Shown one piece after another: positions 60,001 to 63,284 of a DNA stretch of 63,284 nt. The position numbers were made by a program. Each line of letters starts with the position of its first letter. The first letter of the stretch is position 1. Source of the DNA: a virus (lineage: Duplodnaviria; Heunggongvirae; Uroviricota; Caudoviricetes); IMG/VR virus record IMGVR_UViG_2877982868_000011. One strand, written 5' to 3'.

Positions 60001-63000
60001 GGAGAAAAAAATGAACGCAGTGCTCACAGAATTGAACAAATTAGGAAAAGCATCAGCCGAAAGTATTTCTAAAGGTCTCAATATTGATTTGAATGACGTT
60101 ATTGACACTCTATGGAAGTTAAAAAACCAGGGGGTAGTAACTGTAAAAAATGGCATCTGGCAGGCAGTTGCAAGGGAAGTGGACAAAAAACCAAATATCG
60201 CCTCAGTGCAGCCAGTGCAGCCAGTGCAGCCAGTGCAGCCAGTGCAGCCAGTGCAGCACAACATTATAGGTGACCTGCTACGTAAATCACGGAAAGAAGC
60301 GCGTCGCGCCGGGCGGAAACAGAAACGATGGGAGGGTGCATGTAAGGCGCTGCAAGAACTGAATAAATACCGTGACTTGATCAACGAATTGTCAGAGTGA
60401 GCGAATCACAGAGAGAATATTTTGAGAAACAACCCGCGTACATTAATATTGTTTTTCCTTTCTCTAATGACGGGCGGTATCCTGTTATTCGCAGGAACAA
60501 CATTATTTATTTTTGTTGCCCGGCTAACTGCGAGGATAATGACATGAAAATCACATTTGAAAGTTACGGTTTAACAGCAAGTGTGGTTATCTCCAGCTCT
60601 ATATTCGAAAGCCGCAAACATCAGCATATCGTTGATGCAGTGAAACTCAAAGCCCCGGAAGTTACCGTCACAACACATGGACTTTTCAGGATACGAACGA
60701 CGTTGACTACAACACACCTCTCGGCATGCCGTGTTTATGATATGGCACTCAAGGAATACAACCAGTGTTCGTCCTGATCCAGCGCGGGCAGTCTTTCGTT
60801 GATGCCAACAACTATCCGGTAGAAATATGCAAGGTAACTCTGACTCAGGTGATCTACCGAAGGCTCGACGGCAGAACCAGAGCCACTTCAATTGGTGCAT
60901 TTAATGAAGAATTTGAGCGAATCGAGCACAACGAACTGCATATGATTAAAGCGGAAATTGAGAAGGAAAAGCATATTGCCAGCCTTCGAAAAATGCGCCG
61001 TACATCAATCAACTGACAACCGCCTTCGGGCGGTTTTTTCTTACACATGCAGAGGCAACTTATGCGCGAGTTAGTAAACCAACATAACCATGGCATTCAG
61101 CCAGTCATCACACCTGTTGTACAGATAAATGCGAATGAATGGGTAACACTGGAGCTTTTAATGGCTGTAACAGGCCTGAGAAAAGGAACAATATTACGCG
61201 CCAGGGACAGTGCGTGGATGAACGGCAGAGAATATAAACAAATCGCCCCCGACGGAACGCCAAAGAAAAACAGCGAATGTCTCTATCATCTTCCTACCAT
61301 CAACACTTGGATCAAAAACCAACCCTTACCATCTCAGGATGTTTAATTCTTGTCCATAAGAGTATAACCTGAGCGTGCTCTTGGACGCAGGAGGAACAAT
61401 GGCGAATTCAGCCTATCCAGCCGGCGTTGAAAATCACGGAGGAAAACTCCGAATAACGTTTAAGTACAGGGGTAAACGAGTGCGCGAAAATCTTCGCGTG
61501 CCCGATACACCGAAAAACAGAAAGATCGCTGGTGAGTTAAGGGCTTCGGTCTGCTTTGCAATCAGAACAGGAACGTTTGATTATGCCGATCGATTCCCTG
61601 ACTCACCTAACCTGAAGCTATTTGGCCTGGTAAAAAAAGATATCACCGTCGGTGAACTGGCACAGAAATGGCTTACTCTGAAAGTAATGGAAATCAGTAG
61701 TAACGCCTTAAATCGTTATCAATCAGTGATGAAAAATATGCTACCGAGGCTTGGTCCTGGCAGGCTGGCGTCATCGATTACAAAAGAAGATCTGCTGTTT
61801 ATCAGGAAAGATTTACTGACCGGGGAAAAGGGAAGCAGGAAAACCAGCACGTCCCGAAAAGGAAGAACCGTACCCACAGTGAACTATTACATGACAACAA
61901 CAGCCGGAATGTTCAGCTTTGCCGCCGAAAACGGGTATCTGGAGAAAAACCCCTTTAATTCAATAACACCGCTGAGGAAATCAAAACCAGTGCCGGATCC
62001 ACTGACCAGAGATGAGTTTAGCCGTCTCATTGATGCCTGCCATCATCAACAGACCAAAAACCTCTGGACAGTGGCTGTTTTTACAGGGATGCGACACGGT
62101 GAAATTGCCGCACTTGCATGGGAGGATATCGACCTGAAAGCTGGCACGATAACAGTGCGACGAAATTTTACAAAAATAGGTGATTTTACGCTACCAAAGA
62201 CCGACGCAGGCACTAACCGGGTTATACATCTTCTGGCACCAGCAATTGAAGCACTTAAAAACCAGGCGATGCTTACTCGTCTTAGCAGGCAGCATCAGAT
62301 CACTGTTCAATTACGCGAGTACGGAAGAACAATTTTGCACGAGTGCACTTTTGTTTTCTGTCCGCAAATCGTTCGCAAGAATCACAAGGCGGGTATTAAC
62401 TACGCGGTAAGCTCCATCGGAGCGACATGGGATTCAGCAATAAAAAGAGCGGGTATCCGATCCCGTAAAGCGTATCAGTCACGCCATACCTATGCGTGCT
62501 GGGCTTTATCTGCCGGAGCAAACCCGACATTTATTGCATCACAGATGGGGCACTCCAGCGCCAGCATGGTCTACAATGTTTATGGTGCATGGATGCCTGA
62601 GTGCAGCGTGACTCAGGTTGCCATGTTGAATAATGTCCTTAATGCCCGTGCCCCAGACGTGCCCCAAAGTGACCAGGAGGATGAAATAAAATTATATTTT
62701 TCAAAATGATAAACCATATCCTTAGTCATGTTGAAACGATGGCACGCGCAGTCGCTGAGGGTGCAAGCAAAGTGGATGGCGCTGAAGTTGTCGTTAAGCG
62801 TGTACCGGAAACCATGTCGCCGCAATTATTTGAAAAAGCAGGCGGTAAAACGCAAACTGCACCGGTTGCAACCCCGCAAGAACTGGCCAATTACGACGCC
62901 ATTATTTTTGGTACACCTACCCGCTTTGGCAACATGTCCGGTCAAATGCGTACCTTCCTCGACCAGACGGGCGGCCTGTGGGCTTCCGGCGCACTATACG

Positions 63001-63284
63001 GAAAACTGGCGAGCGTCTTTAGTTCCACCGGTACTGGCGGCGGTCAGGAACAAACCATCACATCCACCTGGACGACCCTTGCGCATCACGGCATGGTGAT
63101 TGTCCCCATTGGCTACGCAGCGCAGGAATTATTTGACGTTTCACAGGTTCGCGGCGGTACGCCGTACGGCGCAACCACCATCGCAGGCGGTGACGGTTCA
63201 CGCCAGCCCAGCCAGGAAGAACTGTCTATTGCTCGTTATCAAGGGGAATATGTCGCAGGTCTGGCAGTTAAACTTAATGGCTAA

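What the first reader, a model, noticed from the sequence alone, without database searches (positions are those of the whole stretch)
62649..63284. Right junction: arm-type repeats inside the int 3' end and a hybrid wrbA reading frame coupled to the int stop
Two TGCCCCA(A/G)A repeats sit within the last codons of int. The int stop overlaps an ATG (ATGA at 62706-62709) that opens a frame reading [12 protein letters not shown] and then continuing in-frame into WrbA residues ~19-198. Integration therefore swaps the first WrbA beta-strand and part of its nucleotide-binding loop for a phage-encoded leader rather than simply truncating the gene. Whether this hybrid is expressed or functional is unknown.
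Basis: partly seen in the sequence, partly recalled or inferred. Interest (0 to 1): 0.4.

Follow-up and report, generated by a model that had tools for sequence, protein, structure and literature searches.

The report
Stx prophage junction remodels wrbA start
This is the integrase-side junction of a well-known Shiga-toxin prophage sitting in the E. coli gene wrbA: the short repeats are very probably integrase docking sites, and the phage-started "hybrid" wrbA frame is real and transcribed but probably encodes a crippled enzyme, so it is a modest curiosity, not a new system.

Summary
The window is a 933W/Sp5-type Stx prophage inserted in wrbA. The crossover is a 7-bp core, TTGAAAC, at attL 523-529 and attR 62731-62737.

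The two TGCCCCA(A/G)A repeats at 62649-62668 are one of three 11-bp-spaced tandem pairs flanking the attP core. The other two pairs lie at 652-702. The same tandem pair sits at the int 3' end in 50 of 72 relatives, which target at least nine different sites. In four of them it starts at or after the int stop codon. Int carries an Arm-DNA-bind_2 domain. The arm-type-site reading is therefore well supported.

The ATGA overlap and the 192-aa hybrid ORF are real. RefSeq already annotates this ORF as wrbA in 216 of 5,426 complete E. coli genomes.

Published EDL933 data show the hybrid is transcribed from phage DNA. The int transcription start is constitutive, and a second start lies 121-122 nt upstream of the ATG. 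Its RpoS dependence is only 2.9-fold, against 93-fold for the orphaned 5' fragment.

Translation is unproven. The leader replaces the conserved LVLYYSMYG segment (strand beta1 and the FMN phosphate loop). AlphaFold loses beta1 and beta2 relative to a native control.

Most likely this is a by-product of where attP sits, giving an inactive WrbA. The closest precedent is Rac-ttcA.

The parts
480..542 (+). Orphaned wrbA 5' fragment at attL. It keeps the native start and encodes MAKVLVLYYSMYGHIETMKH*, with the stop supplied by phage DNA.
   Evidence: [quoted passage not shown]
523..529 (+). attL copy of the 7-bp overlap (core) TTGAAAC.
   Evidence: It is identical in attL, attR and free-phage attP, with mismatches on both sides.
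652..702 (+). P' arm: two tandem pairs of arm-type repeats, TGCCCCAAA at 652 and 663, then TGCCCCAAT at 683 and TGCCCCAAA at 694. The period is 11 bp within each pair, and the pairs are 31 bp apart.
   Evidence: family D1. NC_004913 annotates this stretch only as a repeat_region.
61047..61346 (+). Excisionase gene (DUF1233 family) upstream of int.
   Evidence: PF06806, E=1.2e-30; RefSeq 'excisionase family protein'.
61377..61377 (+). Published int transcription start (EDL933 position 1334844). It was seen in all 8 conditions tested, so int is transcribed in the lysogen.
   Evidence: Mapped by offset from the ATG, because the int and wrbA CDS lengths are identical in EDL933 and in the window.
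61399..62709 (+). int, a 436-aa heterobivalent tyrosine integrase with an N-terminal Arm-DNA-bind_2 domain and a Phage_integrase catalytic domain.
62572..62585 (+). Promoter inside the int 3' end. The -10 hexamer TACAAT lies at 62572-62577, preceded by C at -13. The published transcription starts lie at 62584/62585, which is 122/121 nt upstream of the hybrid ATG.
   Evidence: EDL933 positions 1333637 and 1333636, together in 6 of 8 conditions; sequence.
62649..62668 (+). P arm: one tandem pair of arm-type repeats, TGCCCCAGA and TGCCCCAAA, inside int codons, 63-82 bp from the core.
62706..62709 (+). ATGA overlap: the int stop TGA shares two bases with the hybrid ORF's start ATG.
62706..62730 (+). 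Phage-encoded leader MINHIL(S/R)HV. The S7/R7 difference (AGT versus AGA) is polymorphic among phages.
62706..62734 (-). Antisense promoter-like site, TCAACA-17-TATCAT. Its -10 hexamer is the reverse complement of the hybrid's ATGATA. A published antisense transcription start maps to 62701.
   Evidence: EDL933 position 1333520, in stationary-phase LB and stationary-phase acid.
62731..62737 (+). attR copy of the 7-bp overlap TTGAAAC. In attP it is flanked by the inverted core-type repeat (T)CATG / CATG(A).
   Evidence: (annotated attachment site of VT2-Sakai).
62706..63284 (+). Hybrid wrbA ORF of 192 aa. Host-derived sequence begins at the core, and native residues 18-198 follow from ATG 62739.
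   Evidence: (WP_000607023.1).

Best explanation
The region is attR of a 933W/Sp5-type Shiga-toxin prophage integrated in wrbA.

(1) Recombination. The phage's lambda-type heterobivalent integrase recombines within a 7-bp overlap, TTGAAAC, that lies in wrbA codons 15-17. This is shown by sequence.

(2) Arm sites. The TGCCCCA(A/G)A pair in the int 3' end is the P-arm set of arm-type sites, bound by the Int N-terminal Arm-DNA-bind_2 domain. Two further pairs form the P' arm on the other side of the core. This is inferred from comparative data.

(3) Hybrid ORF. attP sits directly behind int and inside the 5' part of the target gene. Integration therefore places int, its constitutive promoter and an internal promoter in the int 3' end upstream of wrbA codons 18-198 and of yccJ. 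The promoters are established at the RNA level by published data. The first in-frame ATG overlaps the int stop (ATGA), so ribosomes finishing int can re-initiate there. This last step is inferred.

(4) Product. The resulting protein lacks strand beta1 and the FMN phosphate-binding loop. It is most likely misfolded or FMN-free and so inactive as an NAD(P)H:quinone oxidoreductase. This is inferred.

The net effects are a wrbA loss of function, loss of its strong RpoS control, and continued phage-driven transcription of the distal part of the operon. The hybrid frame is a by-product of where attP lies, not a selected repair of the gene.
For: Core and att sites:
- attL, attR and free-phage attP share only TTGAAAC, with mismatches on both sides.
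- The same 7 bp are annotated as the attachment site in AP000422 and NC_004913.

Arm sites:
- All 5 exact TGCCCCARA matches in 63 kb lie next to the cores.
- A 25-nt tandem-pair unit occurs three times around attP.
- Int has Arm-DNA-bind_2, E=6e-26.
- A tandem TG[CT]CCC-N5-TG[CT]CCC lies within 100 bp of the int stop in 50 of 72 relatives and nowhere else on the + strand of those loci. These relatives target yecE, ttcA, ydbK, fliE, rcsB and other sites.
- In L048, L050, L051 and L053 the pair starts at or after the int stop codon, so most or all of it is non-coding there.

Expression in EDL933:
- wrbA is annotated at 1332937..1333515, which is the 579-nt hybrid ORF.
- Transcription starts lie at -121/-122, behind a well-placed TACAAT.
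- The int start is present in all 8 conditions.
- Microarray values (log2, wild type versus rpoS mutant) are 12.9 versus 11.4 for Z1423, the 3' part of wrbA; 12.3 versus 10.7 for yccJ; and 8.8 versus 2.2 for the orphaned 5' fragment Z1504.
- The scan found no terminator-like site between int and wrbA.

Loss of function:
- 119 of 120 homologue cluster representatives keep an N-terminus of the form (K/R)(V/I)LVL(Y/F)YSMYGH(I/V)E; one starts at the Met of SMYGH. None has the phage leader.
- Pfam FMN_red aligns only from profile position 16.
- AlphaFold2 on the same 31-sequence alignment gives, for the hybrid, pLDDT 68.2, 58 over residues 1-10, no beta1 and no beta2. The native control gives 75.4, 92 over residues 1-10, beta1 at residues 2-8 and beta2 at residues 32-38.

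By-product rather than design:
- A 74%-identical wrbA-targeting Int (L100) ends 17 nt before the equivalent codon, so there is no ATGA overlap.
- The yecE-targeting relatives supply no in-frame start.
Against: - An in-frame start codon sits at exactly the same position in the divergent L100 phage, as GTG ATA versus ATG ATA. L100's leader, (M)IYSNKGHIETM, resembles native WrbA more closely. Both could reflect selection for a translatable hybrid.
- The hybrid mRNA is abundant, which would be wasteful if the product were useless.
- AlphaFold2 does not measure stability, and the alignment was shallow.
- No direct protein or ribosome data were found either way.
- Int binding to the repeats has not been demonstrated for this family in anything I could read.
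Confidence: 0.65

Rival explanations
1. The phage-encoded leader is a selected replacement 5' end. Like Rac at ttcA, the phage supplies promoter, start codon and a substitute N-terminus so that the lysogen keeps a working, or usefully altered, WrbA together with yccJ expression.
For: - Rac-like relatives of this Int (45% identical) supply the start codon and first residues of ttcA, and Rac integration changes the TtcA N-terminus (PMC4632033).
- The in-frame start position is conserved between the 933W type and L100.
- The hybrid mRNA is abundant and comes from phage-borne start sites.
- The leader ORF is intact in every sampled junction among the 216 E. coli genomes that carry it.
Against: - The leader lacks the near-invariant LVLYYSMYG segment (beta1 and the FMN phosphate loop) and is 6 residues shorter.
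- Identity to the replaced residues is limited to H, E and T, which are dictated by the core and core-type sites.
- AlphaFold2 loses beta1 and beta2.
- The ATGA coupling is absent in L100.
- S7/R7 is a non-synonymous polymorphism.
- The 933W-type junctions are at least 95.9% identical, so an intact ORF among them says little about selection.
Confidence: 0.1
2. ATG 62706 is not used at all. The ATGATA sequence is conserved because it belongs to DNA signals of attP, either an accessory-protein (IHF-like) site or the -10 hexamer of an antisense promoter. Any translation of the wrbA remnant starts at the internal Met18 codon (62739) or does not occur.
For: - There is no Shine-Dalgarno sequence within 5-10 nt; the GGAGGA ends 25 nt upstream.
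- TATATTTTTCAAAATGATAAACC is repeated at 83% identity on the other side of the core and resembles the IHF consensus WATCAANNNNTTR (the consensus is from my own knowledge).
- A minus-strand promoter-like site uses TATCAT, the reverse complement of ATGATA, as its -10. A published antisense start maps 5 nt downstream.
- Some pipelines call a 181-aa product from Met18.
- WrbA did not appear in the held text of a strain 86-24 proteome supplement (weak evidence).
Against: - ATGA stop/start overlaps are a standard coupling arrangement.
- int is transcribed in all conditions.
- The AUG lies in an A/U-rich loop that is unpaired in the predicted fold.
- Met18 has no Shine-Dalgarno sequence either.
Confidence: 0.22
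3. The TGCCCCA repeats reflect a protein constraint, a conserved A-P-x-V-P motif at the Int C-terminus, and are not DNA binding sites.
For: In most relatives the pair lies inside int codons and encodes (A/M)P-x-(V/M)P.
Against: - Four further copies lie in non-coding DNA on the other side of the core.
- In L048, L050, L051 and L053 the pair starts at or after the int stop codon.
- The surrounding C-terminal protein sequence is not conserved, whereas the DNA heptamer and its 11-bp spacing are.
Confidence: 0.03

Closest known systems
Bacteriophage 933W / VT2-Sakai (Sp5) and related Stx phages integrated in wrbA
   Same: The int-wrbA junction is 99.5-100% identical to these phages. The 7-bp attachment site is the same, and so is the order excisionase, int, attP.
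   Different: Nothing structural; the window is one of these prophages. The differences are in how records treat the junction:
- RefSeq calls the hybrid ORF wrbA, while AP000422 treats wrbA as a gene divided by the prophage.
- The arm repeats are annotated only as a 'repeat_region'.
Rac prophage at ttcA (IntR; PMC4632033)
   Same: The integrase belongs to the same family, at about 45% identity, with the same tandem TG(T/C)CCC pair next to the int stop. attP lies just behind int and within the 5' coding end of the target. The prophage supplies the start codon and first residues of the host gene.
   Different: At ttcA only a variable N-terminal extension is exchanged (four residues changed), and TtcA stays active. 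At wrbA the exchange removes a conserved core strand and the cofactor loop. In Rac-like loci the arm pair lies after the int stop and the start codon is about 50 nt downstream, so there is no overlap with the stop.
Phage lambda attP (Int arm-type sites P1, P2, P'1-3; 7-bp overlap; IHF and Xis sites)
   Same: - A heterobivalent Int with a separate arm-binding domain.
- Arm repeats on both sides of a 7-bp overlap.
- Inverted core-type sites.
- An A/T-rich region with IHF-like motifs.
   Different: - The arm-binding domain family differs (PF12167), and so does the repeat sequence (TGCCCCA).
- All six repeats are in the same orientation, arranged as three 11-bp tandem pairs.
- The P arm lies inside the int coding sequence.
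- attB lies inside a gene.
Phage 21 and e14 at icd, and tRNA-targeting phages (the phage carries a duplicate of the target's 3' end)
   Same: Integration inside a gene, with phage DNA completing the reading frame.
   Different: Those phages duplicate the displaced 3' end almost exactly and preserve function. Here the 5' end is replaced by unrelated sequence.

Membership tests
Lambda-type (heterobivalent tyrosine integrase) attP/attR | An integrase with a tyrosine-recombinase catalytic domain and a separate N-terminal arm-binding domain. | tested here: met
   PF00589 at E=2e-17 and PF12167 Arm-DNA-bind_2 at E=6e-26, covering residues 3-66 of the query.
Lambda-type (heterobivalent tyrosine integrase) attP/attR | A short (6-8 bp) overlap identical in attP and attB, flanked by inverted core-type sites. 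| tested here: met
   TTGAAAC is the only run shared by attL, attR and attP, and attP reads (T)CATG-TTGAAAC-CATG(A). The public records annotate the same 7 bp.
Lambda-type (heterobivalent tyrosine integrase) attP/attR | Repeated arm-type sites, different from the core sequence, on both arms. | tested here: met
   There are six TGCCCCA sites in three 11-bp pairs, one pair on the int side and two on the other side. No other exact copy occurs in 63 kb. The pair is conserved in 50 of 72 relatives.
Lambda-type (heterobivalent tyrosine integrase) attP/attR | The Int N-domain physically binds the arm repeats, and they are needed for recombination. | not testable with these tools
   This needs gel-shift (EMSA) or footprinting assays and site mutagenesis.
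Prophage-supplied replacement of a target-gene end that preserves function (Rac-ttcA, phage 21/e14-icd type) | Integration inside the coding sequence, with phage DNA restoring an open frame that has its own start or stop codon. | tested here: met
   ATG 62706 is in frame with wrbA codons 18-198.
Prophage-supplied replacement of a target-gene end that preserves function (Rac-ttcA, phage 21/e14-icd type) | The replacement reproduces the conserved residues of the displaced segment. | tested here: not met
   Only H, E and T match. The LVLYYSMYG motif, present in 119 of 120 homologue cluster representatives, is absent, and the product is 6 residues shorter.
Prophage-supplied replacement of a target-gene end that preserves function (Rac-ttcA, phage 21/e14-icd type) | The hybrid gene is expressed in the lysogen. 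| tested here: inconclusive
   RNA is present, shown by published transcription starts and microarray data for EDL933. No protein or ribosome evidence was found.
Prophage-supplied replacement of a target-gene end that preserves function (Rac-ttcA, phage 21/e14-icd type) | The hybrid protein retains activity. | not testable with these tools
   The AlphaFold2 comparison points to loss of beta1 and beta2, but that is a prediction only.
WrbA / type IV NAD(P)H:quinone oxidoreductase (flavodoxin-like fold) | The complete FMN_red / flavodoxin-like domain, including strand beta1 and the phosphate-binding loop that follows it. | tested here: not met
   The Pfam FMN_red match covers profile positions 16-146 only. 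The alignment to PDB chain 3zho_A starts at chain residue 11. The model has no beta1.
WrbA / type IV NAD(P)H:quinone oxidoreductase (flavodoxin-like fold) | The remainder of the protein, residues 18-198, is intact. | tested here: met
   The match to WrbA structures has E=2e-118 and is near-identical from residue 8 onward.

The most novel reading that the evidence does not exclude
933W-type and related wrbA-targeting phages have evolved their int-proximal attP arm as an expression cassette. It would comprise the constitutive int promoter, an internal promoter in the int 3' end, and a start codon at a conserved position. The cassette would deliberately keep an N-terminally remodelled, FMN-independent WrbA and/or the downstream yccJ expressed in lysogens and released from RpoS control, giving the lysogen a phage-programmed change in its stationary-phase or oxidative-stress physiology.
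Probability: 0.12. Interest if true: 0.55.

Novelty: new member of a known kind. Interest (0 to 1): 0.3.

Why it matters
- **Annotation.** About 4% of complete E. coli genomes, including EDL933, Sakai-type O157:H7 and the O104:H4 outbreak strain, carry this junction. RefSeq labels the hybrid ORF as an ordinary wrbA. Pan-genome, variant-calling and expression studies can therefore treat a probably dead gene as intact.
- **A concrete error.** One preprint reports prophage excision as a 'G25A, V9I point mutation in wrbA'.
- **Regulation.** The data show that lysogeny rewires this operon rather than silencing it. The 5' stub keeps the 93-fold RpoS control, while the body of wrbA and yccJ are driven from phage promoters.
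- **Integrase family.** The family-wide TGCCCCA tandem pair is a usable signature for locating attP in the large Arm-DNA-bind_2 (DUF3596) family, which includes Rac and the yecE-, fliE- and ttcA-targeting prophages.

Tried and rejected
- **Leaderless mRNA.** A promoter-like hit at 62669-62698 would start transcription at the ATG. I rejected this: the hit count is no better than in shuffles, and the EDL933 data show starts only at -121/-122.
- **Protein or ribosome evidence.**
  - Supplements of three EDL933 omics papers (PMC11125564, PMC4765031, PMC5331693) do not mention wrbA or Z1423 in the held text.
  - The strain 86-24 proteome paper (PMC3210124) does not mention them either.
  - This is uninformative rather than negative.
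- **Original 933W paper.** Plunkett et al. 1999 is not held, so I could not check what it says about the wrbA N-terminus.
- **L100-type junction in E. coli.** There is no match. Its host wrbA is Salmonella-like.
- **Alternative N-termini among homologues.** None of the 120 WrbA cluster representatives carries a phage leader. Clustering at 90% identity hides the hybrid, and an exact look-up finds it on 47 contigs.
- **RNA fold of the 5' UTR.** The result is only mildly non-random (z = -2.4), with the AUG in an open loop. It does not settle anything.
- **Terminator between attL and the first phage gene.** I suspected one from reading the sequence, but the scan did not confirm it.
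Full report
**What is there**

The window runs from ymdF and the first 17 codons of wrbA, through a roughly 62-kb prophage, to the rest of wrbA. The int-wrbA junction is 100% identical to E. coli O157:H7 strain 611. It is 99.5-99.6% identical to VT2-Sakai, 933W, Min27 and other Stx1/Stx2 phages. This is therefore the integrase-side junction (attR, in the window's orientation) of a 933W/Sp5-type Shiga-toxin prophage.

Comparison of attL, attR and a free-phage attP gives the following:

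| Site | Sequence |
|---|---|
| attL | GGACATA-TTGAAAC-CATGAAG |
| attR | AGTCATG-TTGAAAC-GATGGCA |
| attP (NC_004913) | AGACATG-TTGAAAC-CATGAAG |

- The only shared run is the 7-bp TTGAAAC, at window 523-529 and 62731-62737.
- In attP it is flanked by the inverted CATG/CATG core-type arms.
- The same 7 bp are annotated as the attachment site in AP000422 and NC_004913.

**The repeats**

- *Distribution in the window.* The pattern TGCCCCARA has five exact matches in 63,284 bases, against 1.27 expected. The other three are at 652, 663 and 694, with a variant TGCCCCAAT at 683, just inside the other end of the prophage.
- *Arrangement in attP.* In the circular phage these form three tandem pairs with an 11-bp period. 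One pair lies 63-82 bp from the core on the int side, and two lie 123-173 bp away on the other side. All are in one orientation. The repeat finder recovers them as one 25-nt family with three copies.
- *Int domains.* Int has an N-terminal Arm-DNA-bind_2 domain (PF12167, E=6e-26) ahead of the catalytic domain.
- *Relatives.* I fetched 157 related loci. A tandem TG[CT]CCC-N5-TG[CT]CCC lies within 100 bp of the int stop in 50 of 72 genome loci that include the int C-terminus. That covers every relative at or above 43% identity except one. It occurs nowhere else on the + strand of those loci.
- *Different targets.* These integrases target different sites: yecE, ttcA, ydbK, a ygiQ-like gene, fliE, upstream of rcsB and phoP, and others. 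The conserved element therefore goes with the integrase, not with the target.
- *Not a protein constraint.* In the ttcA- and ygiQ-targeting loci L048, L050, L051 and L053 the pair begins at or after the stop codon. This excludes a purely protein-coding explanation.

The arm-type-site reading is well supported, although binding itself has not been shown.

**The hybrid frame**

- *Overlap.* The int stop TGA (62707-62709) overlaps ATG 62706. The ORF 62706..63284 encodes [12 protein letters not shown] followed by native WrbA from Met18.
- *Already annotated.* RefSeq annotates exactly this 579-nt ORF as wrbA, 'NAD(P)H:quinone oxidoreductase' (WP_000607023.1), overlapping int by 4 nt.
- *How common it is.* The junction occurs in 216 of 5,426 complete E. 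coli genomes, including O104:H4 2011C-3493, strain 86-24 and ATCC 43894. It is annotated as wrbA in every row listed.
- *Variants.*
  - The leader has two common forms, S7 (AGT) and R7 (AGA).
  - A more divergent junction, L161, still has an intact leader.

**Is it expressed?**

Published EDL933 data answer this at the RNA level.

- *Transcription starts.*
  - In the start-site atlas PMC10469882, wrbA is gene 6605 at 1332937..1333515, which is the hybrid ORF.
  - Its starts are at 1333636 and 1333637, that is 121 and 122 nt upstream of the ATG, or window 62585 and 62584. Together they are seen in six of eight conditions.
  - The paper's comparison with K-12 lists the K-12 start at 50 nt.
  - A TACAAT hexamer at 62572-62577, with C at -13, sits 7 nt upstream of the mapped start.
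- *int transcription.*
  - The int gene (1333512..1334822) has a strong start at 1334844, window 61377, in all eight conditions.
  - The scan found no terminator-like site between int and wrbA.
- *Microarray.* The RpoS microarray study PMC2907692 gives these log2 values:

| Probe set | Wild type | rpoS mutant | Fold change |
|---|---|---|---|
| Z1423, body of wrbA | 12.9 | 11.4 | 2.9 |
| yccJ | 12.3 | 10.7 | 3.1 |

The native RpoS promoter now drives only the stub at attL. The hybrid and yccJ are transcribed abundantly from phage DNA.

Translation is unproven.

- There is no Shine-Dalgarno sequence at a useful distance; GGAGGA ends 25 nt upstream.
- The AUG sits in an A/U-rich loop that is unpaired in the predicted fold, and the ATGA overlap allows termination-reinitiation.
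- I found no ribosome-profiling or proteomic record of the protein in the supplements I could search.

**Is it likely to work?**

- *Conservation.* Of 120 WrbA cluster representatives, 119 keep an N-terminus of the form (K/R)(V/I)LVL(Y/F)YSMYGH(I/V)E. One starts at the Met of SMYGH. None carries the phage leader.
- *Leader content.* The leader shares only H, E and T with the replaced segment, and those residues are encoded by the core and its flanking CAT. It is also six residues shorter.
- *Profile match.* Pfam FMN_red matches only from profile position 16.
- *Structure models.* AlphaFold2 on the same 31-sequence alignment gives the following:

| Measure | Hybrid | Native WrbA |
|---|---|---|
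| Mean pLDDT | 68.2 | 75.4 |
| pTM | 0.74 | 0.81 |
| pLDDT, residues 1-10 | 58 | 92 |
| beta1 | not formed; residues 5-9 of the leader extend helix 1 N-terminally | residues 2-8 |
| beta2 | not formed | residues 32-38 |

By general knowledge of the flavodoxin fold, beta1 is the central strand and the loop after it binds the FMN phosphate. I therefore expect an unstable or FMN-free product. This is inference, not measurement.

**Design or accident?**

Two observations argue for selection:
- A 74%-identical integrase in a Salmonella-like host (L100) uses the same core in wrbA. It has an in-frame GTG at exactly the same position (GTG ATA versus ATG ATA).
- Its leader, (M)IYSNKGHIETM, is closer to native WrbA.

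Several observations argue against it:
- In L100 int ends 17 nt earlier, so the ATGA coupling is not conserved.
- The yecE-targeting relatives supply no start codon.
- The conserved TTTCAA..TGATA stretch has other possible reasons to be conserved.
  - It is part of a 23-nt element repeated on the other side of the core, with an IHF-like motif.
  - Its reverse complement, TATCAT, is the -10 of an antisense promoter-like site. A published antisense start maps 5 nt downstream.
- An in-frame start within a 15-codon open A/T-rich stretch is not rare by chance.

I therefore read the hybrid as a by-product of an attP that sits directly behind int and inside the 5' end of its target.

**Comparison with known systems**

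- The site architecture is lambda-like, with a different arm-binding domain family and a different arm repeat.
- The closest functional precedent is Rac at ttcA.
  - Similarities: the Int family is the same (about 45% identity), the same tandem repeat sits next to the int stop, and the prophage supplies the start codon and first residues. Rac excision changes four N-terminal TtcA residues (PMC4632033).
  - Difference: at ttcA only a variable extension is exchanged, whereas at wrbA a conserved core strand and the cofactor loop are lost.
- The 'function-preserving replacement' class fails on its key feature here, because the conserved residues are not reproduced.

**Verdict**

The arm-site interpretation is supported. 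The hybrid frame is real, already annotated and transcribed, but probably non-functional.

The prophage, its integration site and the 7-bp core are long known. What I did not find stated in the literature I could read is:
- the arm-site assignment and its conservation across the integrase family;
- the phage-driven, RpoS-uncoupled transcription of the wrbA remnant and yccJ.

Interest is low to moderate, at 0.3.

Noticed in passing
window 62730-62732 (codon 9 of the hybrid ORF, GTT): The preprint 10.1101/2022.08.08.503262 reports a 'wrbA G25A, Val9Ile point mutation' in EDL933 clones that had lost 933W, and interprets it as a mutated attB. Position 25 of the hybrid ORF is the G just 5' of the core in attR. 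Native attB has A there. The 'mutation' is therefore simply attB restored by excision, misread because the hybrid ORF is annotated as wrbA.
   Followed up: partly
window 480-542 and onward into the prophage: The native, strongly RpoS-dependent wrbA promoter still fires in the lysogen: Z1504 is 93-fold RpoS-dependent. It now reads through a 20-aa stub into the P' arm of the prophage. I did not determine where these transcripts end. The scan found no terminator.
   Followed up: partly
window 62706-62734, minus strand: A promoter-like site, TCAACA-17-TATCAT, spans the attR core and the hybrid start codon on the opposite strand. A published EDL933 antisense transcription start (1333520, window 62701, stationary phase only) lies 5 nt downstream. 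It would produce RNA antisense to the int 3' end.
   Followed up: partly
L003 2119-2141 and 2210-2232 (window 62693-62715 and about 582-604): A 23-nt element, TATATTTTTCAAAATGATAAACC, which contains the ATGA overlap, is repeated at 83% identity on the other side of the attP core. Both copies resemble the IHF consensus, so they may be bending-protein sites of the recombination complex.
   Followed up: no
L004-L058 (relatives of Int in other Enterobacterales and Vibrio): This integrase family mostly targets the ends of protein-coding genes:
- the 5' parts of yecE, ttcA, ydbK and a ygiQ-like gene;
- just upstream of rcsB, phoP and a PPK2 gene;
- the last codons of fliE, on the opposite strand.
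The arm repeat is conserved throughout.
   Followed up: partly
L100 (IMGVR_UViG_2713897198_000005) 3640-4377: This is a second, divergent wrbA-targeting prophage, with Int 74% identical, in a Salmonella-like host. It uses the same TTGAAAC core. Its arm repeats are TGCCCCATA x2, and its leader (M)IYSNKGHIETM starts at a GTG 17 nt after the int stop.
   Followed up: partly
cluster of the hybrid protein: In the 90%-identity protein collection the 192-aa hybrid WrbA shares a cluster with the 436-aa integrase, which is the cluster representative. Some fused or read-through int-wrbA gene call presumably bridges the two. Other members are a 181-aa WrbA called from Met18 and truncated integrases.
   Followed up: no
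window 60180-60250: The ORF at 60011..60400 contains a perfect tandem repeat encoding (PVQ)x5, from repeated CAGCCAGTG-type units. It also gives repeat-rich ORFs in other frames and on the other strand.
   Followed up: no
L059 (Xanthomonas pisi DSM 18956 contig of 455 bp): A 455-bp contig in a Xanthomonas assembly encodes the first 101 residues of this integrase at 98% identity. This is most likely E. coli or phage contamination of that assembly.
   Followed up: no
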